Shown: in pieces, positions 4,530-50,615 of the stretch
Position numbering within the stretch: position 1 is the stretch's first letter
Layout: each line of letters begins with the position of its first letter
Assembly: GCA_016187105.1 (NCBI GenBank)
Contig: JACPKK010000001.1
Span: 1 to 52,130 of the forward strand
DNA: 52,130 nucleotides
DNA from: Candidatus Curtissbacteria bacterium
GTDB lineage: Bacteria; Patescibacteriota; Microgenomatia; Curtissbacterales; GWA2-41-24
Direction: 5' to 3'
The notes under the pieces: generated by a model
The model's database searches: none
Seen by the model: the letters and a program-made list of their open reading frames with translations, nothing else
What the model was told of the DNA's origin: nothing
Translations under genes and position numbers: made by a program

Positions 4530-4602
4530 TGGCTCCAACCGGAGTCGAACCGGTGTTACTAGGATGAGAACCTAGCGTCCTGGGCCACTAGACGATGGAG
4601 CC
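4530..4602 (-). tRNA. tRNA-Glu (anticodon CUC), no encoded CCA
   Basis: Minus strand folds as a cloverleaf: GGCTCCA TC GTCT AGTGGCCCA GGAC G CTAGG TTCTCAT CCTAG TAAC ACCGG TTCGACT CCGGT TGGAGCC A. The acceptor stem is 7 bp, and the anticodon loop TTCTCAT gives CTC. Confidence 0.9.
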
Positions 4603-10150: not shown

Positions 10151-10156
10151 GTCACT

Positions 10157-10187
10157 TTAAGGAGACAACCTGCGGTTTTCTCCTTAA
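10157..10187 (-). promoter_or_regulatory. 9-bp hairpin TTAAGGAGA-N13-TCTCCTTAA in the lon 5' leader, ending 6 nt before the ATG
   Basis: Perfect inverted repeat. It holds the only SD-like sequence near the lon start. Confidence 0.45.
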
Positions 10188-10292
10188 TATTCCTCTTTCC
10201 CTAAGTTGAAAAATTTGAACTGGCAAATCCAGATTCAAATTTAATTTTATTAATAGTACCCTTATATTATAACCTAACGTTACTAATATGGG

Positions 10293-10320
10293 TTAGCAGA
10301 GAGCATACCATGAGTGCTAA
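10293..10320 (-). promoter_or_regulatory. CIRCE-like element (TTAGCACTC-N10-CTCTGCTAA on the minus strand)
   Basis: The left half is a perfect match to the CIRCE half-site TTAGCACTC. The right half matches 6/9 and the spacer is 10 nt rather than 9. It overlaps the -10 of the lon promoter. Confidence 0.35.
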
Positions 10321-10330
10321 GTGGTGTCAA
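10302..10330 (-). promoter_or_regulatory. Putative sigma70 promoter of lon (TTGACA-N17-TATGCT)
   Basis: The minus strand reads TTGACAccacttagcactcatggTATGCT, about 150 nt upstream of the lon ATG. Confidence 0.5.
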
Positions 10331-10336
10331 GAGAGT

Positions 10337-10368
10337 TAAATTGCTAAATTGCTCGATTGTTAAATTGT
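10337..10368. repeat. Four tandem 8-mers (TAAATTGC TAAATTGC TCGATTGT TAAATTGT)
   Basis: Read directly from the sequence. This AT-rich tract lies just upstream of the lon -35 box. Confidence 0.7.
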
Positions 10369-10424
10369 TGATCGAAGAGATTGCTTCGTCACTTCGCTTT
10401 GCTCGCAATAAGAGAGCTTATTGC

Positions 10425-11255
10425 TCATTTCTCTCGCAATGACAGAAGGCGGATTCCGATTAGGATCAATAACAACGAGAGCAAATAAGCGACTTTGATG
10501 TCCCCTAATTTGGCCGTATCGATGCGCCAGATTTCGGCGACTCCCCGGCTGGCGCCGTAGAGAATGAGATAAAGGCCGAATACAGAACCCGGTTTATTGT
10601 TCGAGTTTACCCTGAACTTCCCTATTTTGAGGAAACTTCTCGACTCTCCGCCAGCTGGCGGATCGCTCGAAGAATAAAATCTCTTTGCCAATACAATCAG
10701 CAGGAAAAAGGCGATCAGTTCCAAAATCGCTTCGTAGAAAAATGTGGGATGGAAATGCGTCTGGAATAGATATTGGATTGGACGATGGGCGGGATCGATA
10801 TAAACTCCCCATGGCAGATTTGTCGGCGGGCCAAAGGCTTCCTGATTGACAAAGTTGCCGATTCTGCCGATTGCCTGACCGAGGATCAAAGACGGCGATA
10901 CAAGATCGAACAGGGATAAAAAATTGATTTTCTTAAACCTAGCAAAAATCCAAAAGCCAATAAAAACTCCGGCGAGGGCCCCGAAAATTCCCAGCCCCCC
11001 ATTTGTTATAGCTAAAATTTGATCGGGGCTTTGGGAGTAAAAACCCCATTTATCAATTACGTGATAAAGGCGGCCGCCGATAGTTCCAAGAATGAGTGGG
11101 GAAAGAAGTAGCGGATCATCAAATAAGGCGGGGCTGATTTTGTATAAAGGCGCCCGTCTTTTGGCGATGATCCAGCCCAGAAGAACGGCAATGGCGATTA
11201 CAAGGCCGTAGATATGGATGGTAAAGGGACCGAGGGGAAATGAATTAGGAATCAT
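10425..11255 (-). CDS. lgt: Prolipoprotein diacylglyceryl transferase, carrying an in-frame repeat insertion
   Basis: 276 aa. Typical Lgt pattern: IHIYGLVIAIAVLLGW..., GGRLYHV, GGLGIFGALAG, GQAIGRIGNFVNQEAFG, HPTFFYEA, YGASRG. There is an extra segment of about 25 aa, YSSSDPPAGGESRSFLKIGKFRVNSNNK. Confidence 0.85.
   Translation of the reverse strand: MIPNSFPLGPFTIHIYGLVIAIAVLLGWIIAKRRAPLYKISPALFDDPLLLSPLILGTIGGRLYHVIDKWGFYSQSPDQILAITNGGLGIFGALAGVFIGFWIFARFKKINFLSLFDLVSPSLILGQAIGRIGNFVNQEAFGPPTNLPWGVYIDPAHRPIQYLFQTHFHPTFFYEAILELIAFFLLIVLAKRFYSSSDPPAGGESRSFLKIGKFRVNSNNKPGSVFGLYLILYGASRGVAEIWRIDTAKLGDIKVAYLLSLLLILIGIRLLSLREK
10595..10677. repeat. Palindromic element (type B) inserted in frame in lgt
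   Basis: The hairpin CTTCTCGACTCTCCGCCAGCTGGCGGATCGCTCGAAGAA lies at 10636..10674, with ATTGTTCGAG at the other end. The same element and the same reading frame occur at 19152..19308. Confidence 0.75.
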
Positions 11256-11258
11256 TTA

Positions 11259-11909
11259 TTAAGTATTAAGAATATGACTTCTCGACTTCGCTCGAAGGAT
11301 AAAGGTGATGATAGCAATTACGGCTGACGAAATAAAAATATTGATGGCTAGGCGGTTTGCAAATTCCACGAAAAACTGCTCGGGGAAAAGTTTGATTAAA
11401 TTATCGTCGGCGGGAAAGAGCCAGAGGGTATTTGTAAATAAAATTTGATGGAATTTAAGGAAAAAGCTATCAAAAGCAGAAGATATTCCCAGCCCAAGCG
11501 CGGCAATGAAGAAAATGGTGGCGATCGATGAAACAAAGAGCGACCCGAGAATGATTTTTGACTGTCTTTTGAAAATCAGGGAAATGGCGATTACCAAGGC
11601 CGCAATGAGTGAGAGATAAAAAAGTCCATTTGCAAAAACCAGTAAATCGCGGACGTCTTTTAGGTGTGAAACAGCCTGCGTTGAGAAAAAATTGTGATCG
11701 AGTGTATTTTTTCCTCTAAAGTAGCCAAATAAATTATTGGTGGCGTCGTTTACAATTTTTTGATTTTCAAAATTCTGGTAGGTTCCAACTTTTCCATAAA
11801 GCGACTGGTAAAAACTGCGGTTTAAAATTAGATAGTTAAAATTTCCGAGAATAATTGAGGCTGGTATCAGCACAATAAGTAAATAGCCAAGGATTCTTGC
11901 GATGGTCAT
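11259..11909 (-). CDS. DUF1461/TIGR01906-like integral membrane protein (family of the lipoprotein intramolecular transacylase Lit, from memory)
   Basis: 216 aa with about 4 TM segments. It has SHLKDVRDL (H..DV motif) and [28 protein letters not shown], as I remember for DUF1461. It has an ATGA overlap with the copB stop and lies 3 nt upstream of lgt. Confidence 0.5.
11278..11298. repeat. Minimal type-B repeat module encoding the C-terminal tail (RAKSRSH) of the DUF1461 protein
   Basis: CTTCTCGACTTCGCTCGAAGG shares the 14-mer CTCGACTTCGCTCG with 33756..33769 in the gltX 5' end. Confidence 0.6.
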
Positions 11910-14113
11910 AATTTAACTTTGCGAAGAGCGAGGGCGTTTAAAACAACTATAACAGATGAGGCGCTCATGAGAAGTGCAGCCCATTCGGGCCTAAGTAGTA
12001 TTCCAAAAGAAAAAAGGGCTCCGGCGGCAACTGGAATTGCCAAAATATTATAACCGGCAGCCCAAGCGAGGTTCTGCTTCATTTTAGAATTCGTTTTTTT
12101 AGAAAGTCTAATTGCCTTGACTACATCTTTTGGGTTATCTTTCACAAGTACTATTTCGGCCGATTCGACAGCTACATCTGTTCCTGCACCGATTGCAATG
12201 CCTACGTGGGCTTGCGTTAAAGACGCCGCGTCGTTAACACCATCCCCAACCATAGCAACAATCTCTCCTTTGCCCTGAAGCTCTTTAACCTTACTGACCT
12301 TATCTTCCGGTAACACTTGGGCAAAAACGGTATCTATTCCCAGCCTTTTTGCGACTGAATCCGCTACGTCCTGGTTGTCTCCAGTTAACATCGCAGTTTT
12401 AATTTTCATATCCGCAAGCGCCGAAATTACCGCTTTAGATTCACTTCTTATAACATCTTCCAGGCTAATCATTCCTATCAGCTTTTTGGCTTTTGCTACC
12501 CAAATATAGGTATTTGCAGCATCTTGATTCTTGTTAATTTTGTCTTCAAGACTTCCCTTTTCAATACCAAATTGTTTTATTAACGCTTTATTGCCAATAA
12601 TTGTGCTCTCCCCATCAACAGCAGCGCTGGCCCCCTTACCGGGATAAGACTTGAAATTTTTGGCAGGGGAAAAAGTAATTTTTCTTTTTTTGGCTTCTTC
12701 AACTACCCCTTGGGCAATAGAATGCTGTGAATGAAATTCTACGGAAGCCGCAACCTTTAATATGTCATTTTCGGAGATATTATCGGCAGTAATGATTTTA
12801 CTAACCCCAAATTTTCCTTTGGTTAAAGTTCCGGTTTTGTCAAAAACCACGTACGTAAGTCTGCGGGCAATTTCGGCGGCTTTCATGTCCCTTATCAATA
12901 TTCCGTTTTTGGCAGCCAGTGATGTTGTAATAGTTGTAACTGTAGGAATTGCTAGACCCAACGCATGGGGGCAGGCAATAACAATAACCGTTATAGCCAG
13001 AGTACCCGCGAAAACTGCGGGTGCTGCACCTTGAGGAAAAATAAACATCCAAAAGAGAAAAGTTCCAGTGCCAACTATAATTGCCGTGTATGTAAGCCAG
13101 CTGGCGGCACGATCCGCAAGTTTCTGGACTGGCGGTTTTGACTCCTGGGCTTCCCTAATAAGTTCCATTATTTGTGAAATAGCAGTATCTTTTCCAGTCT
13201 TTTCCACTTCCAGCGTTAGTGACCCGTCATTGTTGACTGTTCCGCCAATCACCTCATCGCCTTTCTTTTTGGGGACTGGTTTGGACTCGCCGGTAACCAT
13301 GGACTCGTTGATAGAGCTTTCACCGTCAATTACTACGGAATCGATTGGTATTTTTTCTCCCGGGCGGACTAAAATTTTATTTCCACGAGTCAGCTCTTGC
13401 GTACCAACATCGACAATCTCCTTACCGCGAATTTGATGGGCTGTCGGGGGAATTAATTTGGCGAGTTGGGCCAAAGCGCCGCTTGCACCCCGCACGGCTC
13501 TCATCTCCATCCAATGGCCGAACAAAAATACTAAAACCAGTGTCGAAATTTCCCAATAAAGGCTTTCGCCTTCAAATAGGAATGTCGCGGCTACACTGAA
13601 GGCATATCCTGCAAGGACGGCAAGACTTACGAGTGTCATCATTGCGGGGTTACGGCCTTTGAGTTCTCCCCTGGCCATCTGGTAGAAGGGCAATCCGGCC
13701 CAAGAAACTATTACTGACGCAACGAAGAAGCTTATAATTCCCGAATAAGGGATATTAAGTGATAGCCCTAACCACCTTTGAATGTTTGGCGAGAGAATAA
13801 CGACCAGGGCGGTTAACGGGAGCGCGATAAAAAATCTTTTTTTGAAGCTTTCTTCCATACCCGCATGACTTGGGCCGTGTTCGTGCTTTTCCAGCTTCAT
13901 GCCGCATTCGGGACAATCTTGCGGCTTGTCTCTTGTTATCTGGGGGTGCATAGGGCAAGAGTAGATAGTGCCAGGCTGATTACGGCTTGTTATTTGTTTG
14001 GTACCTGATACCTGTGATTTAGTATCGATAACCAGGTCCATGCCGCATTTTGGGCATTTGCCGGGTTTATCGGATGTGACGTCCGGATGCATGGGACAAG
14101 TGTAGGCTGTCAT
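11906..14113 (-). CDS. copB: Copper-transporting P1B-type ATPase, CPH (CopB-like, P1B-3) subtype
   Basis: Motifs: TGES, CPH in TM6 ([13 protein letters not shown]), DKTGTLT, GDGVNDA. The N-terminus has two CPMHP...CP(K/E)CGM metal-binding motifs. The start was moved to ATG 14113 ([12 protein letters not shown]), which forms an ATGA overlap with the upstream ORF stop. The track start at 14200 is probably an over-extension. Confidence 0.9.
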
Positions 14114-14607
14114 CGTTTGTTCCCTTTTACCAAGTACAAAATTGAGGCGGCAATGATAAGCAAGGAAATACTGATGGGAGCAATGACCGGACCGACCCAA
14201 GGTGTAGGAAGCAAGAAAAACGTGTCGAGATCCAGCAATGATTTGGGCCAGCCGATTGTGAGTTTTAGGAAAATATAATAGAAAATATCCCAGACCCCAA
14301 ACATCAGGAGGAAAAAGGCGATTTTTTGTTTTAAATTTTTAGCGGCAAGCGCGGCGACAGAAGCCAGCATAATAAGTGTGGCAGCTTCGCGTAATCTTTC
14401 GATGTTCAAAATAGCCGTATCGGTTATGATCTTGACAGCGAACCTTGGCTCTAAAAAAGCAATGCCAGGAATCAAAAATAGGATTTGATCTTGGCTGACA
14501 CTCGCTTGATTTAAAGCGAAAAGACGGCGCAGATAGATAACAACAGCTGCCTCAACAAAGGCAAAAGCAACGGCAAAGACAACTACTTTGATAATTGATT
14601 GTTTCAT
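14110..14607 (-). CDS. Integral membrane protein, unknown function (copper operon member)
   Basis: 165 aa with 4-5 hydrophobic helices. It is translationally coupled to copB. Confidence 0.6.
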
Positions 14608-19005: not shown

Positions 19006-19710
19006 ATGATTTACACAAAAGGCGGAGACGGCGGTAAAACTTCTCTTTTTGGCGGAGAGAGGGTAGATAAAAATTCCGCGAGGATTGCGGCTTACGGAAC
19101 TGTTGATGAATTGAATTCACTCGTTGGAGTAATTATTGCAGAGTCAAATGATTATTCTTCGAGCGATCCGGCGAACGGCGGAGAGTCGAGAAGGAGTTCT
19201 CGACCACGTCCGAGATCGCAAGACGAAGTCGTTTTCGGCGGACAAGCTCGAACAATATGCAACGCATGTTGTTCTCGTCCTGAGCTACGTCGAAGGGCTC
19301 GAACAATAACAGACAAACTTCTCCGTATTCAAGCCGAGCTTTTTGTGTTGGGGTCGAGCCTGGCGGTAACTGGGAATATGAAGGTAAGGATGCCAAAAAT
19401 TTCCAAAGCGTGTGTCACTCGCCTGGAGAAAGAGATTGATATTTGGGAAAAGGGCTTAACTCCTCTTAAAAATTTTATTCTGCCTGGGGGCGGGAAAACT
19501 GGAGCGAAACTTCATTTAGCGCGGGCTGTTTGCCGTCGAGCGGAAAGATTGATAGTAGATTTAGACCGCTTGGACAAGCTAAATCCGAACGTATTAGTTT
19601 ATATTAATCGCCTTTCGGACTGGTTTTTTGTGGCGGCAAGATATGCCAATAAGCTGGAAAATATTCCTGAATGGGTTTGGAAAGGGCGTAAGCAAAAGGC
19701 GAAAATCTAA
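19006..19710 (+). CDS. PduO-type ATP:cob(I)alamin adenosyltransferase, with a ~50-aa in-frame repeat insertion
   Basis: MIYTKGGDGGKTSLFGGERVDKNSARIAAYGTVDELNSLVG...LLRIQAELFVLGSSLA...FILPGG...LHLARAVCRRAER...YINRLSDWFF. I use the ATG at 19006; the track start at 18982 is a TTG. Confidence 0.85.
   Translation: MIYTKGGDGGKTSLFGGERVDKNSARIAAYGTVDELNSLVGVIIAESNDYSSSDPANGGESRRSSRPRPRSQDEVVFGGQARTICNACCSRPELRRRARTITDKLLRIQAELFVLGSSLAVTGNMKVRMPKISKACVTRLEKEIDIWEKGLTPLKNFILPGGGKTGAKLHLARAVCRRAERLIVDLDRLDKLNPNVLVYINRLSDWFFVAARYANKLENIPEWVWKGRKQKAKI
19152..19308. repeat. Composite palindromic element (type B plus PFD-type module) inserted in frame in the adenosyltransferase gene
   Basis: The hairpin TTCTTCGAGCGATCCGGCGAACGGCGGAGAGTCGAGAAG lies at 19155..19193. 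GCTCGAACAATA occurs twice. The minus strand of 19271..19300 reads GAGCCCTTCGACGTAGCTCAGGAC. Confidence 0.75.
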
Positions 19711-22491: not shown

Positions 22492-25362
22492 TCAGCTACA
22501 TTTGCTCCAGCCGCAGATGACGTTTACGCATTTTTTGCAGCCTTCGGCGTAGATTAGGGGACTGCCGCAATCGGGGCAAGATGTAAATTTGGCTTCCAGC
22601 ATTTTTTCTTCTTCGTGGATGGAGGTAATAATTAAGCCGCTTGGGTCTTGCTTGTCAACGACTGCGGGAACTTGTGTGGAAATTAAGCTGTTTAAAGTCA
22701 TCTGGGCGGTTTTACCGTTGCCTGTGTGACCATTAGTGTAGCCATTGCCCTGCCTGCCGGCAGACAGGCTATAGCCGTTGGTGTGGCCATTTGTCTCTAA
22801 ATTGACTGACGTTTGGCCATTATCGGGGGACACTGGCTCCTCGCTAATTGGCAGCTGCAGCTGTTTGGCCTTGGCGATTTCCAGGAGTGATTTACCAACA
22901 GCATCAAATGCGCTAAGGACGCTGTCCGGGCCGAGGCCATAAGGGGTTCCGCAAGAAATACCAACCAAGTCGGAAGCCACTTCTTCAAGCGTCGCGCCGT
23001 ATTTAAGGGCGCGGGAGATTAGCCTGCCGGTGACTTCGGCAGATGCGGAGATATAACCGCCGGGTTTGCCGATATTGATAAACACTTCCACCGGAACACC
23101 ATCAACATCCCGATAAACCGCCGTGTAGACCCAGCCGACGTCGGCCCTTTTTCTGACGCGCATACCCCACGCCTCGTGCGGAGTGCGGCGTTTTCCGGGA
23201 AGCTGTGGTCCGCCCGGCGGCGAGACAGACAGTCCGCTAGCTGATTCGTCCAGGCGTTTGGCGGCCAGCCCCGCACCTTGCGGGGCAAGCTGATCGTAGT
23301 ACGATTTGTCTTTTTTAACTTCCAGGACTTGTTTGACGCGGGAACCGTCGCGGTAAATGGTAATCATGTGGCCGCCTAACTCGTAAGTTAACCAGTAAGC
23401 CTCGCGGACGTCTTCAACCGTGGCTTCACTGGGGAAGTTAATGGTTTTCGAGATGCCGTTGTCGGTAAACTTTTGGAAGGCTGCTTCCATGCGCACGTGG
23501 TCGGCAGGGGCAATATCACCGGCCACGACAAAGACTTTTTTGAGCTCGGGGGGGCAAGCGGCAAGATTCTGGATCGACCCTTTGTTTTCCCCGATCTGGG
23601 CAAGAAGCTCTTCGGAATATAATTCCTGATCTTCAAGGGCCTTTGTGAAATAGGGATTGGTATTAAAAAGCCTTTTACCTTCAATGGTGTTTTTGGCAAA
23701 GGTAAGGGCAAAATGCGGCTCGATGCCGCTGGAACAATCGGCAAGAAGCGAGATCGTGCCGGTTGGGGCAATGGTGGTGCGGGCACCGTTTCTGGGGCGG
23801 ATGCCGACTTTCCCACCTTCGCCCTTTCGACTTAGCTCAAGGCTTCGGCGGGCAGGTTTGTCGTAAATTGAGCCTTTGAATGCCGGGAAGACGCCGCGGA
23901 TTTTGGCGAGGCCCTCGCTGGCACTATCCGCCTCTTCCTGCACAAACTTCATGACTTTTTCGGCTAAATCAAAGCCTTCCTTCGTGTTATAGCCGATTCC
24001 CAGCTTGACGAGCATGTCGGCCCAACCCATAACCCCAAGGCCGACGCGGCGGATTTTGGCAGTCATCTCGTCGATTTGGTAAACCGGATACTCGTTCATA
24101 TCCAGAACGTTATCCAGAAAATGAATGGCGCAATGGATTGTTTTTTTCATCGCCTGCCAATCGATTGCTTCTTCGACCCTTCGACTTTCAGCCGCGGGGT
24201 AAACAAACTTGGAAAGATTGATTGAACCTAAGGTGCAGGCGTCATACGGGTGCAGGGGCTGTTCGGCGCAAGGGTTGGTGGCCTCGATTGGCCCAAATTT
24301 AGGGACGGGATTGGCGCGGGATTTGTTGACCCGATCAATTAAGATCAGACCCGGATCGCCGTATTGCCAGGCGAGCTTGGTGATTAAATCAAAAACTCTT
24401 TTGGCATTAAGTTTGTCCATGGTCTTGCCGGTCCTGGGATTAATGAGGTCGTAACCTTCACCTTCTTCTTTGGCCCGGCAAAGTTCGTAAAGCCTGGCCA
24501 CCCCTTCGTCGACCCGGACGTTTTTGAGATCGAGGTCGCGAATAGCATAGGCTTCTTTGATTTCTGCGACAATCGGGTCAAAATCCACCTCTAGTTGAGC
24601 ATACTGGGCATCTTTGTGAACCTGCTCCATAAACCCTTCGGTAACGGTAACGGAAATATTAAAGTTTGTCAGCGAAAATTCATCGATTTTGTGGACGGCA
24701 AAACGCAGGACATCAGGATGGTTATAATGGAGAATTCCCATGTTGGCACCACGCCTGACACCGCCCTGGCGGATTTGACTGCAGACGTCGTTATAGGCCT
24801 GCATAAAGGCTACAGGGCCGGTAGATTTGCCTTTGGAAGTGCCGATCATATCATCTTTGGGGCGAAGGTGGGAGAAAGAAAAACCGGTACCGCCAGCCAT
24901 TTTGTGGATCATGGCCATGTCGGACATGGTTTTTAGGATAGAACGCATATCGTCTTCGACCGGCAGAACGAAGCAGGCCGAAAGCGATTGGCCGATTTTG
25001 CCGGAGTTGACGAGAGTGGGCGTATTAGGAATAAAGCTTTGGGTAGCCATGAGTTCATAAAACTCGCGGGCGGCTACCTGGTGAACTTTTTTTGCGCGAC
25101 TTGACTCGCGGCGAGGCAGGTAGATGGTATCGGCGGCGGCAATATAATAAGCAACGCGCCAGAAGAGATCCTTGGGAGTTTCTATGGGATTACCCTTATC
25201 ATCCCGGAAAGCATACCGCGTTTTGGCAATATAGGCGGCATTTTCGGAAAGAGCAGGCTCAAACAAATCCTTGGGGGCTTGGGGGATTTTGCGGCCGAGC
25301 TTGCGAGCCGCTTCCCGTTCATGCTGTCTTAAATCGACTTTAATTTGGTTCAACTTTTTCAT
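22492..25362 (-). CDS. nrdJ: Class II (adenosylcobalamin-dependent) ribonucleotide reductase with a C-terminal Cys4 zinc ribbon
   Basis: 956 aa. Motifs: NPCAEQPL, TIAPTGTISLLADCSSGIEP, GISKTINFP. The C-terminus reads CPDCG...CKKC. Low-complexity linker: NGHTNGYSLSAGRQGNGYTNGHTGNG. Confidence 0.9.
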   Translation of the reverse strand: MKKLNQIKVDLRQHEREAARKLGRKIPQAPKDLFEPALSENAAYIAKTRYAFRDDKGNPIETPKDLFWRVAYYIAAADTIYLPRRESSRAKKVHQVAAREFYELMATQSFIPNTPTLVNSGKIGQSLSACFVLPVEDDMRSILKTMSDMAMIHKMAGGTGFSFSHLRPKDDMIGTSKGKSTGPVAFMQAYNDVCSQIRQGGVRRGANMGILHYNHPDVLRFAVHKIDEFSLTNFNISVTVTEGFMEQVHKDAQYAQLEVDFDPIVAEIKEAYAIRDLDLKNVRVDEGVARLYELCRAKEEGEGYDLINPRTGKTMDKLNAKRVFDLITKLAWQYGDPGLILIDRVNKSRANPVPKFGPIEATNPCAEQPLHPYDACTLGSINLSKFVYPAAESRRVEEAIDWQAMKKTIHCAIHFLDNVLDMNEYPVYQIDEMTAKIRRVGLGVMGWADMLVKLGIGYNTKEGFDLAEKVMKFVQEEADSASEGLAKIRGVFPAFKGSIYDKPARRSLELSRKGEGGKVGIRPRNGARTTIAPTGTISLLADCSSGIEPHFALTFAKNTIEGKRLFNTNPYFTKALEDQELYSEELLAQIGENKGSIQNLAACPPELKKVFVVAGDIAPADHVRMEAAFQKFTDNGISKTINFPSEATVEDVREAYWLTYELGGHMITIYRDGSRVKQVLEVKKDKSYYDQLAPQGAGLAAKRLDESASGLSVSPPGGPQLPGKRRTPHEAWGMRVRKRADVGWVYTAVYRDVDGVPVEVFINIGKPGGYISASAEVTGRLISRALKYGATLEEVASDLVGISCGTPYGLGPDSVLSAFDAVGKSLLEIAKAKQLQLPISEEPVSPDNGQTSVNLETNGHTNGYSLSAGRQGNGYTNGHTGNGKTAQMTLNSLISTQVPAVVDKQDPSGLIITSIHEEEKMLEAKFTSCPDCGSPLIYAEGCKKCVNVICGWSKCS
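22748..22768. repeat. 21-bp palindrome CCCTGCCTGCCGGCAGACAGG inside nrdJ (encodes SLSAGRQG)
   Basis: One of four copies; see 25371, 41724 and 50184. Confidence 0.8.
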
Positions 25363-25840
25363 GCTTTAGGCCCTGTCTGCCGGCAGGCAGGCTCTTTGAT
25401 AATTTTGCCAGTTCTTTTTCAAAATCCGAAAGGTCGGCAAATTGTCTATAAACAGACGCGAACCTGATGTAGGCAACTTCGTCCAGCTTTTTCAGTTTAC
25501 GGATTACGAGTTCGCCGATCCTTTTTGACAAAACTTCGTCTTTGCCGTCTTTTCTTAAATCCCCTTCTACCTCATCGATAATCTTTTCAATATCGTCGGC
25601 CGAAACCGGCCGCTTCTCGCACGATTTGATAATACCGCTTCGCAATTTGCTTCTATCAAAAATTTCCCTCTTGCCGTCCTTTTTAATAACTAAAAGATCA
25701 AGCGTTTCAACCCTCTCGAAGGTTGTAAACCGGCGGCTACATTTTTGGCACTGGCGCCTGCGCCTAGTTGTTTTACCGTCGGTGCCTTCTCTTTTATCGA
25801 TAACCGCAGTCTTATCGAAGCTACAAAACGGACAAATCAC
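25340..25840 (-). CDS. nrdR: Transcriptional repressor NrdR
   Basis: MICPFCSFDKTAVIDKRE...CQKCSRRFTTFE is the zinc ribbon, followed by an ATP-cone. It has a GTG start with the SD AAGAGGAAG. It overlaps the nrdJ start by 23 nt. Confidence 0.9.
   Translation of the reverse strand: MICPFCSFDKTAVIDKREGTDGKTTRRRRQCQKCSRRFTTFERVETLDLLVIKKDGKREIFDRSKLRSGIIKSCEKRPVSADDIEKIIDEVEGDLRKDGKDEVLSKRIGELVIRKLKKLDEVAYIRFASVYRQFADLSDFEKELAKLSKSLPAGRQGLKHEKVEPN
25371..25391. repeat. 21-bp palindrome CCCTGTCTGCCGGCAGGCAGG in the nrdR 3' tail (encodes SLPAGRQG)
   Basis: Read directly from the sequence. Confidence 0.8.
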
Positions 25841-29263: not shown

Positions 29264-29337
29264 TGGCTGCGGAGCAGGGATTCGAACCCCAATACCATCC
29301 TCCAGAGGGATGTGTCCTACCGTTAGACGACTCCGCA
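29264..29337 (-). tRNA. tRNA-Gln (anticodon CUG), CCA encoded
   Basis: Minus strand folds as TGCGGAG TC GTCT AACGGTA GGAC A CATCC CTCTGGA GGATG GTAT TGGGG TTCGAAT CCCTG CTCCGCA G CCA. It has the U1:A72 pair typical of bacterial tRNA-Gln. Confidence 0.9.
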
Positions 29338-29393: not shown

Positions 29394-30521
29394 TTAGATA
29401 TTTTTAATTTTTTCCCAAGGGAACTGGTCCCTTCCGAAATGACCGTAGGCGGCAGTTTCCAGGTAAATCGGTCTTCTTAAATCCAACTCTTCGATTATGC
29501 CCCTGACAGAAGTATCGATTAATTTTTCAATAAAGCTTATAAGCACTTTTTGGGAAACACGGGCAGTGCCGAATGTTTCTACTTCCTGCATCAGAGGCTT
29601 TTTGGCGCCAATAAAATAGGCCAGACTAACTTCGGCTCGGGAGGCAAGTTTATGGGCGACAATGTTTTTGGCAATAAACCTTGCGGCGTACGCGCCGGAT
29701 CTATCTACTTTGGTCGGATCTTTACCGCTGAAACATCCGCCGCCAACCCGGGCGTAACCGCCGTATGTGTCAACGACGATCTTCCTGCCGGTCAGCCCGG
29801 AATCAGAAGCCGGACCGCCAATATGCCAAACCCCAGTCCCGTTAACAATGACCTTGTCTTTAGGAACTTCCAGCCCATAAGTTTCCAAGACTTTGCTGAC
29901 AACATATTTATATAAATCGGCTTTGACTTGCGTGAGCCTTACTTTTTGATCGTGAGGAACAGCAATGACGACTGTCGAAACGCCAACAGGCTTACCGTTT
30001 TTATACTCAACCGTTACCAGTGATTTGCCATCCGGCCTAAGATAGGGAATTGATTTACTTTTTCTCGCATCGTCGATTGCTTTGGTAATTTCGTGAGCGA
30101 GCGTTATCGGTAAAGGCATTAATGACTTAGTTTCGGTGCAAGCAAAACCGAACATGATTCCCTGATCACCGGCTCCGTCATTGTCAACGCCAGCGGCAAT
30201 TTGGGGTGATTGTCCAGATACATAAATTTCTATTGGTGACTGGTAAGTAAAATTAAAGCGCTTTTTAGTGTAGCCTAGGCTTTTAATTTGATTCCTGGAG
30301 ATATCTTCAAGGCTGATGCGGGCGCTGGTTGTCAGTTCGCCGACAATAATGAGTCTGTTTTTAGCAGCCATCGTCTCTATGGCCACACGGCCCTGCTGAT
30401 CTTGGGCCAACACTTCATCCAATATAGCGTCGCTTATCTGGTCACAAATTTTATCCGGATGACCGGCACAAACAGATTCGGAAGTAAAACTTGAGGATAA
30501 TTTTTGTCTTTTTGCGACCAT
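29394..30521 (-). CDS. metK: S-adenosylmethionine synthetase
   Basis: 375 aa. Motifs: GHPDKICDQISDA, GAGDQGIMFGFA, GGGCFSGKDPTKVDRSGAY. Confidence 0.95.
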   Translation of the reverse strand: MVAKRQKLSSSFTSESVCAGHPDKICDQISDAILDEVLAQDQQGRVAIETMAAKNRLIIVGELTTSARISLEDISRNQIKSLGYTKKRFNFTYQSPIEIYVSGQSPQIAAGVDNDGAGDQGIMFGFACTETKSLMPLPITLAHEITKAIDDARKSKSIPYLRPDGKSLVTVEYKNGKPVGVSTVVIAVPHDQKVRLTQVKADLYKYVVSKVLETYGLEVPKDKVIVNGTGVWHIGGPASDSGLTGRKIVVDTYGGYARVGGGCFSGKDPTKVDRSGAYAARFIAKNIVAHKLASRAEVSLAYFIGAKKPLMQEVETFGTARVSQKVLISFIEKLIDTSVRGIIEELDLRRPIYLETAAYGHFGRDQFPWEKIKNI

Positions 30522-30602
30522 ATCTACCTTTTAGGTACAGGCACCGTGGCTAAATTAGGCTCGGTTGCCGGTCCGCCGATGACGGACTCTCTTGATACAA
30601 CA
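30522..30602 (-). ncRNA. Candidate SAM-I-clan riboswitch (SAM-I / SAM-IV / SAM-I/IV-like) in the metK leader
   Basis: The minus strand reads UUGUAUCAAGAGAGUCCGUCAUCGGCGGACCGGCAACCGAGCCUAAUUUAGCCACGGUGCCUGUACCUAAAAGGUAGAU-AUG. Core strings AUCAAGAG, GGCAACC and GGUGCC occur in the SAM-I order. A possible P1 (GUAUC/GAUAU) overlaps the start codon. Confidence 0.45.
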
Positions 30603-30607
30603 AAAAG

Positions 30608-39055: not shown

Positions 39056-40396
39056 GTGATTGATAAAGATATTAAGCACATTCTTGATAAAATTGATAAG
39101 GCCGGGTTTGAGGCGGCTTTGGTTGGCGGCGGGGTACGTGATGTCTTGGCGGGTAAAAATATTTCCGACTGGGATTTGACGACAAACGCGAAACCGGAAG
39201 AGATTTTAAAGTTATTCCCAGAGGCTTTTTACAACAACCGCTTTGGGACGGTGGGAATTGCCAAGGACGGCAAAACGATTGTTGAGATCACGACTTGGCG
39301 AACGGAGGGGAAATATACAGATCTTCGCCATCCAGAGAAAGTTTCTTGGGGCAGGAGCCTTGAAGAAGATTTAAGACGAAGGGACTTTACAATTAACGCC
39401 GTGGCCCTTCGCTACGCTCAAGGTAAACTTAGCGAAGCGCCGGTTGATCCGTTTGGCGGACAAGATGATTTTAAAAATAAAATCATTAGAACTGTCGGGG
39501 ATCCCGACGAGCGGTTCGGCGAAGACGCTCTGCGGCTGCTTCGAGCGATCCGCTTTGCCGCGACACTCGGGTTTAAGATTGACAAGAATACCCTCAAGTC
39601 AATTAAGAAAAACGCAAAGTTGATTTCCAAAATCTCGGGCGAGCGGATCCGTGATGAGCTATTTAAAATCATCGAGAGTGAGGGAGCAGCGGATGGGGTT
39701 TTTCTGGCAAGAGAAGGCGGGATCCTTCCTGTAATTTTGCCGGAGCTGGACGTGTGTTTTGACGTACCGCAAAAAAGCCCGAAGAGGCACCACGTGTATG
39801 ACGTGGGAACTCACTGCGTGATGAGCATGCAGGAATGCCCTTCAAAAGATGTCATGACTCGTTTTGCGACGCTACTCCATGATGTTGGAAAAGCAAAAGT
39901 TGCCAAAACGATAGATGGCGTGCGGACTTTTTATAATCATGAAGTGGTTGGATCTCGACAAGCCAGTCAGATAGCTAGCCGACTCCATTTGTCGCGAGAG
40001 CAGAAAGATAAACTTTTTAAATTGGTGCGCTGGCATCAGTTCAGTGTCAACGAGAATCAGACAGACGCAGCAATTCGCAGATTTATTAGAAATGTAGGGC
40101 TGGAATATGTTGAGGATATGATGGATCTTCGGGTTGGCGACCGGCTGGGCGGCGGTTTGCAGCAGCCGGAATCTTGGAGGCTTAAACTCTTTAGACAGAA
40201 GATAAAAGATGTTTTGAAACAGCCGTTTACGGTAAAAGATTTAAAGATTGACGGAAATGACGTGATGCGCGAGCTTAACCTAAAACCCGGGCCAAAAGTT
40301 GGAGGGATTTTGAATAAACTTTTTGAAGAAGTACAGGAAGACCCAAAGAAGAATAAAAAAAAATATTTACTAACGGCGATTAGGTCCTTGTTGTGA
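39056..40396 (+). CDS. cca: CCA-adding tRNA nucleotidyltransferase with an HD domain
   Basis: 446 aa. Motifs: ALVGGGVRDVLAGK...DWDLTT, RDFTINA, LRAIRFAA, HDVGK. Confidence 0.85.
   Translation: MIDKDIKHILDKIDKAGFEAALVGGGVRDVLAGKNISDWDLTTNAKPEEILKLFPEAFYNNRFGTVGIAKDGKTIVEITTWRTEGKYTDLRHPEKVSWGRSLEEDLRRRDFTINAVALRYAQGKLSEAPVDPFGGQDDFKNKIIRTVGDPDERFGEDALRLLRAIRFAATLGFKIDKNTLKSIKKNAKLISKISGERIRDELFKIIESEGAADGVFLAREGGILPVILPELDVCFDVPQKSPKRHHVYDVGTHCVMSMQECPSKDVMTRFATLLHDVGKAKVAKTIDGVRTFYNHEVVGSRQASQIASRLHLSREQKDKLFKLVRWHQFSVNENQTDAAIRRFIRNVGLEYVEDMMDLRVGDRLGGGLQQPESWRLKLFRQKIKDVLKQPFTVKDLKIDGNDVMRELNLKPGPKVGGILNKLFEEVQEDPKKNKKKYLLTAIRSLL
39407..39437. repeat. PFD-type repeat-like hairpin inside cca (CTTCGCT-N17-AGCGAAG; encodes LRYAQGKLSEA)
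   Basis: GCCCTTCGCTACGCTCAAGG resembles the GAGCCCTTCGAyNAC.CTCAGG core of the intergenic repeats. Confidence 0.4.
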
Positions 40397-41627: not shown

Positions 41628-41723
41628 TTTATTTTGCGGGTCCTGTCACGACTTTCCTTCCCGCCAGTGATCATTTTCCTGATTCGATTTTGTTGTTGTC
41701 CTCATTGCTTCCATTGCGCGCTA

Positions 41724-41744
41724 CCTTGCCTGCCGGCAGGCAGG
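41724..41744. repeat. 21-bp palindrome CCTTGCCTGCCGGCAGGCAGG in the secD-secF spacer
   Basis: Read directly from the sequence. Confidence 0.8.
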
Positions 41745-41776
41745 TCGGGAACCCTTCCTGTCGTGCCACCCGCTTC

Positions 41777-49838: not shown

Positions 49839-50615
49839 TCAAAGTTTAGATTTTCGCCATCCAGAATCTTGGGCTTCCCCTTCTGTGCAAAACCATTTTT
49901 CGCCTTTAGACTCGTCGACTACTGTTTTATCGTAATATCTTTGCCCGGGCAGATGATAAATTTTTTCGCCGGAGGTTGAGATGTTTCCTTTAATAAGGCA
50001 AGCTTCTTCTTGACTGGTCGTCTTATCATCTGATTTACATACTGACCACAAACCTTTGCCTTGTTCCTGCGCTCTCTGTTGGGATTGTAGAAGACGGTCT
50101 TGGTACTTAATATCCGGCGGAAAAGCCGAGCTTTGCGCGAAACCTTCTTTGACAAGATAATCATTGACGAAAATATCATCTACACCTGCCTCGCCGGCAG
50201 GCAGGTAAACGTACCTTAATAATCTTCCATACTTATCGGTCTGGCTCACATCTTTTTCTAGACTAATTGATTTACCTTCAACCAGTTCCTTGTTTTTTGC
50301 GGCCGATTCTTGACCGAAACATTGGACAGGTTTCCTAGGATCCACAGTTTCCGGGGTATCGATACCAATGTAACGGACTCTCTGGCCATTTTCGAGTTCA
50401 ATGGTGTCACCATCAATAACTTTGGAAACTTTGGCAGTCGTGAGGTTGTTAATTTCAGGTAATAATTGACTCGAATCGCTTGCGGAGATAACTTGAGGAT
50501 AGTTCTCAACCGTAGTTGACTCACGGCCAGCTTGATTTTTCCCAAAGGAAAGAATGAATAAGACTAAGGCGAATATAAAAAATAATCCAGAAAAAAGTAG
50601 GGGTAACTTCTTCAA
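49839..50615 (-). CDS. Membrane-anchored thermonuclease (SNase-like) with a C-terminal Cys-containing domain
   Basis: VIDGDTIELENGQRVRYIGIDTPE and GRLLRYVYL...NDYLVKEGFA. The C-terminus reads GNISTSGEKIYHLPGQRYY...WFCTEGEAQDSGWR. Confidence 0.8.
   Translation of the reverse strand: MKKLPLLFSGLFFIFALVLFILSFGKNQAGRESTTVENYPQVISASDSSQLLPEINNLTTAKVSKVIDGDTIELENGQRVRYIGIDTPETVDPRKPVQCFGQESAAKNKELVEGKSISLEKDVSQTDKYGRLLRYVYLPAGEAGVDDIFVNDYLVKEGFAQSSAFPPDIKYQDRLLQSQQRAQEQGKGLWSVCKSDDKTTSQEEACLIKGNISTSGEKIYHLPGQRYYDKTVVDESKGEKWFCTEGEAQDSGWRKSKL
50184..50204. repeat. 21-bp palindrome CCTGCCTCGCCGGCAGGCAGG inside the nuclease gene (encodes LPAGEAG)
   Basis: Read directly from the sequence. Confidence 0.75.

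What the first reader, a model, noticed from the sequence alone, without database searches (positions are those of the whole stretch)
10595..10677. The same type-B element, in the same reading frame, inserted in lgt
Lgt normally has only a few residues between the helix ending ...LLIVLAKRF and PGSVFGLYLILYG (E. coli has about 4, from memory). Here 28 residues intervene: YSSSDPPAGGESRSFLKIGKFRVNSNNK. The coding-strand DNA TTATTCTTCGAGCGATCCGCCAGCTGGCGGAGAGTCGAGAAG...CTCGAACAATA matches the start and end of the adenosyltransferase insertion. It is translated identically (YSSSDP.A.GGESR). Two independent insertions read in the same frame suggest that only frame-compatible, hydrophilic-loop-encoding insertions survive selection.
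Basis: partly seen in the sequence, partly recalled or inferred. Interest (0 to 1): 0.7.

Follow-up and report, generated by a model that had tools for sequence, protein, structure and literature searches.

The report
Palindromic repeat translated inside lgt
An 84-base palindromic repeat sits in frame inside the essential lipoprotein gene lgt of a Curtissbacteria (CPR) genome, adds a floppy 28-residue cytoplasmic loop, and belongs to a widespread repeat family that, inside genes, is nearly always read in one harmless serine-rich frame, much like the palindromic elements of Rickettsia.

Summary
It encodes YSSSDPPAGGESRSFLKIGKFRVNSNNK.

A second copy lies in the cobalamin adenosyltransferase gene (19152-19258). 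Its first 42 nt are 88% identical and are read in the same frame. The 3' ends are read in different frames.

The closest Lgt orthologues, including a syntenic locus, lack the insert. AlphaFold models it as a low-confidence coil between two confident helices that correspond to E. coli TM5 and TM6. That places it on the cytoplasmic side, away from the active site.

The element belongs to a modular family: box A, hairpin, box B, spacer, box B', hairpin, box A'. I found it in many CPR lineages and in contigs labelled Omnitrophota and other phyla.

About a quarter of complete copies lie inside housekeeping genes. Of 33 such copies outside this window, 23 use the same strand and frame (YSSS...). Stop-codon avoidance alone predicts about 19%. 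That frame is the most hydrophilic of the six.

I conclude it is a translated, tolerated selfish repeat, comparable to Rickettsia palindromic elements. How it moves is unknown: I found no target-site duplication and no transposase. It is a new family of a known kind.

The parts
10425..11255 (-). lgt (prolipoprotein diacylglyceryl transferase), the host gene. It is intact at 276 aa.
   Evidence: Pfam LGT E 6e-64. 100% identical to an NCBI Candidatus Curtissbacteria protein. AlphaFold pLDDT 82.5. Foldseek top hit 5AZB, TM 0.72. The positions invariant across 28 orthologues are present, including the GRIGNFxNQE signature and R237/E241/R244.
10594..10677 (-). Complete type-B palindromic element, 84 nt = 28 codons. 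It is read as YSSSDPPAGGESRSFLKIGKFRVNSNNK (Lgt residues 194-221).
   Evidence: It folds as a closed multi-stem structure on either strand (-29.9 and -27.6 kcal/mol, z -4.3 and -3.8). It is absent from the closest orthologues and from the syntenic locus L122.
10664..10677 (-). Box A, the left terminal inverted repeat: TTATTCTTCGAGCG.
   Evidence: Conserved in all family copies. Conservation stops at (T)TAT. It pairs with box A' and carries a fixed C-opposite-C mismatch.
10647..10662 (-). Hairpin 1: TCCGCC AGCT GGCGGA. This is the variable G+C-rich palindromic module.
   Evidence: Other family members carry a different palindrome here, for example CCGCG TCAGA CGCGG in L001.
10636..10645 (-). 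Box B: AGTCGAGAAG.
10606..10635 (-). Inner hairpin and spacer, with a degenerate box B'. Only GTTC remains of GTTCTCGAC.
   Evidence: Comparison with L001 and 50 other copies. Folding.
10594..10605 (-). Box A', the right terminal inverted repeat: CTCGAACAATAA.
19006..19710 (+). PduO-type ATP:cob(I)alamin adenosyltransferase gene, host of the second copy.
   Evidence: Pfam PF01923 E 7e-56, in two stretches. PDB 3CI1 aligns to residues 2-44 and 97-229. Orthologues without an insertion are 181-185 aa; this one is 234 aa.
19152..19258 (+). Second complete type-B copy, on the coding strand. Same frame as the lgt copy at the 5' end (YSSSDPANGGESR), different frame at the 3' end (QARTI).
   Evidence: nhmmer E 8e-14. 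It folds at -46.7 kcal/mol, z -4.0. AlphaFold gives coil with pLDDT 46-49 for about residues 53-90.
19259..19309 (+). Extra right-half piece (degenerate arm, hairpin, box A') that completes the 156-nt, 52-aa insertion.
   Evidence: nhmmer E 0.014 to the right half of the profile. Its hairpin resembles the reverse complement of the intergenic 'type-A' repeat (pairs I22 and I23).
11274..11302 (-). Half copy (box A joined directly to box B). It forms the last codons of the neighbouring lit gene (…[14 protein letters not shown]; the stop codon lies at 11259-11261, just outside this interval).
   Evidence: nhmmer E 1e-3. Sequence read. It is read in the ILRA frame.

Best explanation
The segment is a non-autonomous, selfish palindromic DNA repeat that landed inside lgt and is now transcribed and translated as part of the enzyme.

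Shown:
- It is an 84-nt unit bounded by 12-nt inverted repeats and built from four conserved boxes and variable hairpins.
- It is one of at least four copies or part-copies in this 52-kb contig, all on the coding strand of their host genes.
- Its family is present in many CPR lineages and in contigs labelled Omnitrophota and other phyla.
- It adds 26 net residues to a loop that is short in relatives.
- The reading frame and every conserved Lgt residue are intact.

Inferred:
- The extra peptide is a disordered, net positively charged loop between TM5 and TM6, on the cytoplasmic face. This is opposite the periplasm-facing active site, so the enzyme tolerates it.
- The family persists in genes because one of its six frames (TAT TCT TCG AGC... 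= YSSS[D/E]...ESRS...SSR...) is stop-free and strongly hydrophilic. Insertions in other frames or orientations, or into structured parts of proteins, are removed by selection.
- The copy has no function of its own in Lgt.

Most uncertain: how it spreads. The unit is two inverted copies of a module of roughly 30-50 nt with no target-site duplication. That looks more like REP doublets (REPINs), moved in trans as hairpin DNA, than like a cut-and-paste MITE. No mobilising enzyme was found.
For: Insertion, not ancestral loop:
- Closest orthologues and the syntenic locus lack it.
- 78 of 104 relatives have the short loop.

Repeat family:
- 135 distinct complete copies share boxes and boundaries.
- The window holds two complete and two partial copies.

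Palindromic structure:
- z about -4 on both strands.
- No strand asymmetry in 52 copies (21 against 30, p = 0.39). This fits a DNA palindrome rather than a strand-specific RNA.

Translated and tolerated:
- The ORF is intact and the invariant residues are kept.
- AlphaFold gives coil at pLDDT about 53 for the insert, between confident helices 171-194 and 224-243. The fold matches 5AZB.
- The E. coli structure paper places the TM4-5 head and the TM6-7 loop in the periplasm and the active site facing the periplasm (PMC4728403). The TM5-6 loop is therefore cytoplasmic.

Frame bias:
- 23 of 33 intragenic copies elsewhere are in this strand and frame, against about 19% expected (p = 3e-10).
- This frame is the most hydrophilic.

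Real host genes:
- 17 of 18 tested hosts have Pfam families, including Mur ligases, class I aminoacyl-tRNA synthetases (one valyl), RecJ, PriA, ThyX, HMG-CoA reductase and NAD synthase. Several domains are split into two stretches by the insert.

Long-term persistence as coding sequence:
- Two adenosyltransferases 72% identical to each other share one orthologous insertion. Its boxes are decaying while the frame is kept.
Against: - There is no direct evidence of translation. No proteome or transcript data are available.
- Lengths of intragenic copies fall in all three classes modulo 3. No single insertion rule explains how the frame is preserved, so some copies must have gained or lost bases at or after insertion.
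- No empty-site allele of this very lgt was found, so the exact junctions and the recency of the event are unknown.
- A codon-phase preference of the insertion machinery could add to the frame bias.
- Only one 52-kb contig of the genome was available.
- Phylum labels of the other genomes are taken from record titles of metagenome bins.
Confidence: 0.8

Rival explanations
1. The 28 residues are a lineage-specific, functional Lgt loop that only resembles the adenosyltransferase segment by chance or by convergence.
For: Many Curtissbacteria Lgt proteins have extra residues in this same loop. The insert is net positively charged, as a cytoplasmic loop should be.
Against: The closest orthologues and the syntenic locus lack it. 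The DNA matches a repeat family with conserved boxes at E 2.5e-11. The inserts in other Lgt proteins are unrelated palindromes. AlphaFold gives no structure for it.
Confidence: 0.03
2. The element is removed before the protein is made, like a mini-intron, a processed intervening sequence or an intein. In that case the in-frame reading would be irrelevant.
For: The two ends pair and bring the flanks together. CPR bacteria are known for intervening sequences in rRNA genes (from my own knowledge).
Against: No Rfam family matches, even at E 10. At 28 aa it is far too short for an intein. If it were excised there would be no reason for intragenic copies to avoid stop codons or to favour one frame, yet 23 of 33 do. 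Folding shows no strand preference. Old copies lose their pairing but keep their frame.
Confidence: 0.05
3. The copy has been co-opted. The hairpin in the mRNA or DNA, or the peptide itself, regulates lgt expression, membrane insertion or an interaction.
For: The structure is strong. The family sits directly upstream of ribosome-binding sites in Omnitrophota contigs, which suggests some effect on expression there.
Against: The same loop takes unrelated repeats in other species, and most species have none. Orthologous old copies decay in sequence and in pairing. Nothing ties the peptide to any known motif.
Confidence: 0.1
4. It is an assembly artefact, or the gene is dead.
For: The sequence comes from a metagenome-assembled contig. 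Repeats can confuse assemblers. This Lgt sequence is on record from one contig only.
Against: At 84 nt the element is shorter than ordinary reads (from my own knowledge), and both of its flanks lie within one gene, in frame. The adenosyltransferase protein with its insertion is on record on 5 contigs from several sources. Comparable insertions recur in dozens of independent assemblies. There is no frameshift or stop, and all invariant residues are present.
Confidence: 0.02

Closest known systems
Rickettsia palindromic elements (RPEs)
   Same: Both are short palindromic repeats present in many copies. Both are frequently inserted in frame into unrelated housekeeping genes and read through as extra peptide segments that are compatible with the protein fold (review PMC10969869). 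No coding capacity for a transposase is evident here.
   Different: - Host range: CPR (Microgenomates) and contigs labelled Omnitrophota, Gammaproteobacteria and others, not Rickettsia.
- Size: 58-111 nt here, against about 150 bp for RPEs.
- Architecture: a modular four-box design with swappable hairpins.
- Sequence relationship to RPE consensus sequences was not tested.
REP doublets (REPINs) and BIMEs of proteobacteria
   Same: The complete element is two inverted copies of a module of roughly 30-50 nt (conserved arms around a G+C-rich hairpin) separated by a short spacer. The two module types differ at fixed positions. Single modules and permuted pairs also occur, and no target-site duplication is detectable.
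   Different: REPs are extragenic by definition, whereas about a quarter of complete copies here are inside genes. There is no conserved GTAG or CGTC head. No RAYT transposase could be linked to the family.
Bacterial MITEs that create in-frame fusions (intragenic ERIC, Correia/NEMIS, cyanobacterial MITEs)
   Same: Small size, terminal inverted repeats, many copies, no transposase gene, and occasional in-frame reading inside host ORFs (PMC10969869).
   Different: No target-site duplication was found. No parent insertion sequence with the same ends was found. The strand and frame bias is much stronger and more consistent.

Membership tests
RPE-like in-frame palindromic repeats (the kind, not the Rickettsia sequence families) | Short palindromic repeat present in many copies | tested here: met
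   84 nt, folding z about -4.
RPE-like in-frame palindromic repeats (the kind, not the Rickettsia sequence families) | Inserted inside protein-coding genes without breaking the frame | tested here: met
   lgt and the adenosyltransferase gene in the window. A further 33 copies in long ORFs elsewhere. 17 of 18 tested hosts have Pfam families.
RPE-like in-frame palindromic repeats (the kind, not the Rickettsia sequence families) | The insert lies in a loop or on the surface and is compatible with the fold | tested here: met
   AlphaFold models of Lgt and the adenosyltransferase show a low-confidence coil between confident helices. The Lgt model matches 5AZB.
Rickettsia RPE-1 to RPE-10 sequence families | Sequence similarity to an RPE consensus, and a Rickettsia host | not tested
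   No RPE consensus was available to compare. The host is a Curtissbacteria, so membership is not claimed.
MITE | Terminal inverted repeats | tested here: met
   TTATTCTTCGAG / CTCGAACAATAA. The conserved ends are (T)TAT...ATA(A).
MITE | Target-site duplication flanking the element | tested here: not met
   Across 135 copies no flanking direct repeat of 2-6 nt exceeds the permutation expectation by more than about 11 copies. The best case is explained by the palindromic ends themselves.
MITE | A parent insertion sequence with the same ends that encodes a transposase | tested here: inconclusive
   Box A to box A' pairs 0.5-3.5 kb apart in the first 122 fetched loci enclose ordinary genes (PilB-like ATPase, MraY, FtsA, TrpRS and others), as judged by reading the translations. 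Whole genomes were not searched.
REP / REPIN / BIME | Imperfect palindromic units of about 20-40 nt occurring as inverted doublets | tested here: met
   Module B'-hairpin-A' is nearly the reverse complement of module A-hairpin-B. Doublets, permuted doublets and single modules were all seen.
REP / REPIN / BIME | Extragenic location | tested here: not met
   All four copies in the window, and 25-29% of complete copies elsewhere, lie in ORFs.
REP / REPIN / BIME | Conserved GTAG or CGTC head, and an associated RAYT transposase | tested here: inconclusive
   No such conserved tetranucleotide appears in the boxes (sequences). RAYT genes could not be searched genome-wide with these tools.
Self-splicing intron, intein or known structured RNA | Match to a described RNA family, or intein splice motifs and size | tested here: not met
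   No Rfam match at E 10 or at gathering thresholds. The insert is 28 aa.

The most novel reading that the evidence does not exclude
The element may represent a family of REPIN-like selfish palindromes shared across phyla, among the ultra-small, gene-dense bacteria of groundwater and sediments (CPR, Omnitrophota and others).

On this reading its conserved boxes have been shaped so that one frame encodes an innocuous Ser/Arg/Glu-rich linker. That would let the family colonise essential genes where intergenic space is scarce. Permissive loops, such as Lgt TM5-TM6 or the first inter-helix loop of the adenosyltransferase, would then become recurrent landing pads and a steady source of new protein segments.

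It would also imply horizontal spread between phyla and an unidentified mobilising enzyme that recognises the boxes.
Probability: 0.35. Interest if true: 0.75.

Novelty: new member of a known kind. Interest (0 to 1): 0.55.

Why it matters
In-frame palindromic repeats have so far been treated as a peculiarity of Rickettsia. This finding shows the same phenomenon, with a different and much more widely distributed repeat family, in candidate-phyla-radiation bacteria, and in genes as central as lgt, Mur ligases and aminoacyl-tRNA synthetases.

- Annotation: many odd 'low-complexity' segments in CPR proteins are likely to be repeats of this type.
- Protein evolution: the inserts act as natural insertion scans that mark permissive loops. 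For example, they indicate that the TM5-TM6 loop of Lgt, an antibiotic target, can accept 13-48 extra residues.
- Mobile DNA: the family offers a case with clear statistics for asking how selection filters selfish elements by reading frame.

Tried and rejected
- TA target-site duplication (IS630/mariner-like). I considered this because tandem junctions read CTCGAACAA-TA-TTCTTCGAG. I rejected it because the four flanking bases are inverted rather than direct repeats, so they belong to the terminal repeat. No direct-repeat excess exists, and intragenic copy lengths fit no single duplication rule.
- Empty-site allele of this lgt. A metagenome scan with both flanks 0-30 nt apart found nothing.
- Parent element or transposase between distant box pairs. 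Only ordinary genes were found.
- Known RNA family. None matched.
- Strand-specific RNA structure. There is no folding asymmetry.
- Phage carriage. There were no matches in viral contigs.
- Literature. Searches for the box sequences returned only primers. No listed paper combined MITEs with CPR or Omnitrophota.
- A 15-nt match at 39539-39553. It lies in an unrelated coding context with nothing else of the element, so it is chance.
- Pattern matches in high-G+C genomes that lack a right end (for example L012, L032, L041). I treated these as chance matches and excluded them from the census.
- A miscount. My first count of 13 of 16 for the genome set was wrong; the correct figure is 12 of 16.
Full report
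**What is in the window**

The window is a whole 52,130-bp contig of a Candidatus Curtissbacteria genome (CPR, Microgenomates). The Lgt protein is 100% identical to an NCBI Curtissbacteria entry whose longest contig is 52,130 bp.

The ORF at 10425-11255 on the minus strand is Lgt. The evidence is Pfam PF01790 at E 6e-64 and a sequence match to E. coli Lgt 5AZB. It sits in a conserved ATPase-Lit-Lgt-Lon arrangement that is also found in the nearest related genome.

On the coding strand the DNA from 10677 down to 10594 (84 nt) is:

TTATTCTTCGAGCG-A-TCCGCCAGCTGGCGGA-G-AGTCGAGAAG-TTTCCTCAAAATAGGGAAGTTCAGGGTAAA-CTCGAACAATAA

**The second copy**

- The first 42 nt recur at 19152-19193 at 88% identity (pair I1; blastn E 2.6e-7).
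- This copy lies inside a PduO-type cobalamin adenosyltransferase gene (PF01923, matched in two stretches).
- The terminal CTCGAACAATA recurs at 19247-19257 and again at 19298-19309.
- Both copies read TAT TCT TCG AGC GAT CCG (YSSSDP), then two differing residues, then GGESR. The shared frame at the 5' end is real.
- The 3' end is read in different frames: SNN in lgt and ARTI in the adenosyltransferase.
- The adenosyltransferase insertion (19153-19308, 52 aa) is composite: a complete copy plus a second right-half piece.

A profile built from 52 family members finds four things in the window:
- the two complete copies, at E 8e-14 and 2.5e-11 (the profile includes these two copies);
- a box A + box B half copy at 11274-11302;
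- the right-half piece at 19267-19309.

The half copy supplies the last codons of the neighbouring lit gene (...[14 protein letters not shown]). All four lie on the coding strand of their host genes.

**It is an insertion**

In an alignment of 28 Lgt orthologues, the closest relatives (60-74% identity, 250-257 aa) have three or four residues where this protein has 28.

The syntenic locus of the nearest genome reads ...ATT AAA ATG TCG AGT AAA CTA AAA CTT CCC GGC CAA (IKMSSKLKLPGQ). The window protein is a net 26 residues longer.

Loop lengths in 104 related Lgt sequences:

| Loop state | Number of sequences |
|---|---|
| Short loop | 78 |
| 8-9 extra residues | 13 |
| 13-48 extra residues | 13 |

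Only one other Lgt (P0025, 55% identical) carries a type-B element. Its DNA shows a different family member, with hairpin CCGCG TCAGA CGCGG instead of CCGCC AGCT GGCGG. It has the same orientation and frame but is offset by a few residues within the loop. That points to an independent insertion.

The other long inserts in this loop are unrelated palindromes. One is a perfect 16-bp hairpin with z -7.8.

The adenosyltransferase shows the same picture. Empty orthologues are 181-185 aa. The first inter-helix loop carries YSSS-type inserts in seven of the 29 other orthologues aligned, and other repeat-derived inserts in about ten more.

**Where it sits in the protein**

AlphaFold with the orthologue alignment gives a mean pLDDT of 82.5. 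Residues 195-223 are coil with pLDDT about 53, falling below 50 at 207-214. They lie between confident helices 171-194 and 224-243. The only significant structural match is E. coli Lgt 5AZB (E 1.8e-9, TM 0.72).

The E. coli structure paper places three features on the periplasmic side: the head domain between TM4 and TM5, the TM6-TM7 loop, and the active site. It describes the cytoplasmic face as positively charged (PMC4728403). The TM5-TM6 loop is therefore cytoplasmic and far from catalysis (inference from topology).

Read from the sequence, the inserted peptide has a net charge of about +3. All positions invariant across the orthologues are present, including the GRIGNFxNQE signature and R237/E241/R244 in TM6.

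The adenosyltransferase insert is likewise modelled as coil with pLDDT 46-49, between helices 25-52 and 91-120. The L. reuteri PduO structure 3CI1 aligns to residues 2-44 and 97-229.

**What the element is**

A scan of one genome per species for TCTTCGAGCG-N6-30-AGTCGAGAAG stopped at its 120-locus limit. A metagenome scan for the complete form did the same. Viral contigs gave nothing.

Complete copies are 58-111 nt (a few are about 200 nt) and share one plan:

(T)TAT TCTTCGAGCG [box A] - variable G+C-rich hairpin, often of the GCGAAGC type - AGTCGAGAAG [box B] - spacer of 0-25 nt - GTTCTCGAC [box B'] - optional second hairpin - CGCTCGAACAATA(A) [box A']

Features of this plan:
- A pairs with A', with a fixed C-opposite-C mismatch. 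B pairs with B'.
- The predicted shape is a three- or four-way junction.
- The right module is nearly the reverse complement of the left one, so the unit is an inverted doublet of a module of roughly 30-50 nt.
- Single modules occur, as do permuted doublets (B'-A' followed by A-B). In Omnitrophota contigs these often lie between ordinary genes, just upstream of ribosome-binding sites.

Further properties across copies:
- In 135 distinct copies, sequence conservation ends at (T)TAT and ATA(A).
- No flanking direct repeat is in excess, so there is no detectable target-site duplication.
- Folding energy shows no strand preference (21 against 30 copies, p = 0.39). This fits a DNA palindrome rather than a strand-specific RNA.
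- No Rfam family matches.
- No transposase lies between distant box pairs.

Record titles place copies in:
- Curtiss-, Levy-, Roizman-, Gottesman-, Doudna-, Portnoy-, Uhr- and Berkelbacteria and Saccharibacteria;
- many Omnitrophota;
- uncultured Gammaproteobacteria and Pseudomonadales;
- Stahlbacteria, WOR-3, Elusimicrobia, Auribacterota and an Actinomycetota bin.

These are labels of metagenome bins and I did not verify them.

**The frame test**

I tested this on complete copies that lie in an open frame extending at least 50 codons on both sides.

| Set | Copies in ORFs | Same strand, YSSS frame | Same strand, ILRA frame | Same strand, third frame | Opposite strand |
|---|---|---|---|---|---|
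| Genome scan (excluding the two window copies and L001) | 13 | 9 | 2 | 0 | 2 |
| Metagenome scan | 22 of 87 distinct copies | 16 | 2 | 0 | 4 |
| Pooled, two duplicates removed | 33 | 23 | 4 | 0 | 6 |

I estimated the null expectation from copies not in ORFs. There the YSSS frame is stop-free about as often as the other five frames (19 of 39 and 34 of 65). If stop-freeness were the only filter, it would take 18-20% of surviving insertions.

- The excess of the YSSS frame gives p = 3e-10.
- The orientation bias alone gives p = 3e-4.
- The split among the three same-strand frames gives p = 4e-6.

The favoured frame is also the most hydrophilic and the least hydrophobic of the six. Its GRAVY is -0.93, against -0.31 to -0.53 for the others. 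Its hydrophobic fraction is 18%, against 26-33%.

The hosts are real and diverse. Seventeen of 18 tested have Pfam families, and several domains are split into two stretches by the insert. They include:
- Mur ligases and class I aminoacyl-tRNA synthetases (one with the valyl-tRNA synthetase C-terminal arm);
- MgsA, RecJ and PriA;
- FemAB and a DegT aminotransferase;
- HMG-CoA reductase and mevalonate diphosphate decarboxylase;
- ThyX, a pseudouridine synthase, NAD synthase and methionine aminopeptidase.

What the data cannot do is separate selection on the peptide from a possible codon-phase preference at insertion.

**Persistence**

Two adenosyltransferases that are 72% identical to each other (P0129 and P0155) share one orthologous type-B insertion with an identical left junction.

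In P0155 the boxes have picked up point changes (GTCAAGAAG, GCTCAAACAATAA) that weaken the pairing, while the reading frame is kept.

This is what a translated passenger would look like if its DNA structure were no longer needed. It argues against excision and against a structural role for old copies.

**What remains unexplained**

Measured from TAT to ATA, the lengths of intragenic copies fall in all three residue classes modulo 3. Correspondingly, the 3' box is read as SNN in some hosts and as ARTI in others.

No fixed insertion rule can therefore account for frame preservation. Either the junctions are imprecise and selection picks the in-frame outcomes, or copies gain and lose bases after insertion. 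The lgt copy itself has lost most of box B'. I found no empty-site allele of this lgt that would settle the junctions.

**Comparison with what is known**

In behaviour the closest match is the Rickettsia palindromic elements. These are short palindromic repeats inserted in frame into many unrelated genes, with predicted compatibility with the protein fold (PMC10969869).

In architecture the closest match is REP doublets (REPINs/BIMEs): inverted pairs of small palindromic units without target duplications. Those are extragenic and tied to a RAYT transposase, which I could not look for genome-wide.

It fails the MITE test for a target-site duplication, and the search for a parent insertion sequence with the same ends found none but was inconclusive.

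I found no paper that describes this family, or MITE-like repeats in CPR or Omnitrophota, in the library I could search.

I file it as a new family of a known kind of element.

**Verdict**

- The lgt case is one clear example of a general habit of these genomes.
- Interest is moderate. The principle has been known from Rickettsia since 2000 (date from my own knowledge). The breadth of the family, the strength of the frame bias and the recurrent use of particular loops are new and easy to test further.

Noticed in passing
window 11274-11302 (minus strand), 3' end of the lit gene (11259-11909): A half element (box A joined directly to box B) provides the last codons of the Lit protein, ...[14 protein letters not shown]. 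In the nearest genome (L122) the Lit C-terminus is instead built from a different repeat (...VIPNLFRDLQLKMLKRVQHDKKGMT). Repeat-derived C-terminal tails therefore seem common in these genomes.
   Followed up: partly
window 22747-22769, 25370-25392, 41723-41745, 50184-50206: A 20-23-nt palindrome, CCTGCCTGCCGGCAGGCAGG, occurs four times. Three copies lie inside mechanically listed ORFs, where they read SLSAGRQG, SLPAGRQG and YLPAGEAG. The same palindrome serves as the second hairpin of a type-B copy in another genome (L049). The hairpin modules therefore appear to be shared between repeat families.
   Followed up: partly
This contrasts with the type-B copies, which are all inside genes. The extra hairpin in the adenosyltransferase insertion (19279-19312) resembles the reverse complement of part of this repeat.
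   Followed up: partly
loci L003, L009, L010, L018, L040, L051, L065, L083 (contigs labelled Omnitrophota): Here the modules lie between ordinary genes. B'-hairpin-A' follows one gene. A-hairpin-B then ends a few bases before the ribosome-binding site and start codon of the next gene. Whole genes are thus bracketed by arms that can pair. This hints at a role in transcript ends or processing in that phylum.
   Followed up: no
window 10425-14200, and loci L122, L243, L244, L246: lgt is preceded by lit (lipoprotein intramolecular transacylase, PF07314), directly in the window, L122 and L243 and with overlapping coordinates in L244. A heavy-metal P-type ATPase gene lies upstream in the window, L122, L243 and L244 (not always adjacent to lit), and Lon follows lgt in the window, L122 and L243. 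The gene order suggests that these CPR bacteria make lyso-form lipoproteins.
   Followed up: no
alignments A2 (Lgt, columns 38-51) and A3 (adenosyltransferase, columns 165-185): Other loops also carry occasional inserts. One is YQLGPQSEGRGPHGT in the TM1-TM2 loop of Lgt P0008. Another is PAKGRSASGG in a later loop of two adenosyltransferases. Together these inserts map several permissive sites in each protein.
   Followed up: no
window 30490-30603 (minus strand): A SAM-I/IV riboswitch (RF01725, 54 bits) lies next to the start of the ORF at 29394-30521. Two tRNA genes are at 4530-4602 and 29267-29337.
   Followed up: no
window 10151-10424: The 274-nt spacer between lon and lgt contains further short repeats (...CGTCACTTCGCTTTGCTCGCAATAAGAGAGCTTATTGCT...). 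The related genome L122 has a called 111-aa gene on the opposite strand at this position.
   Followed up: no
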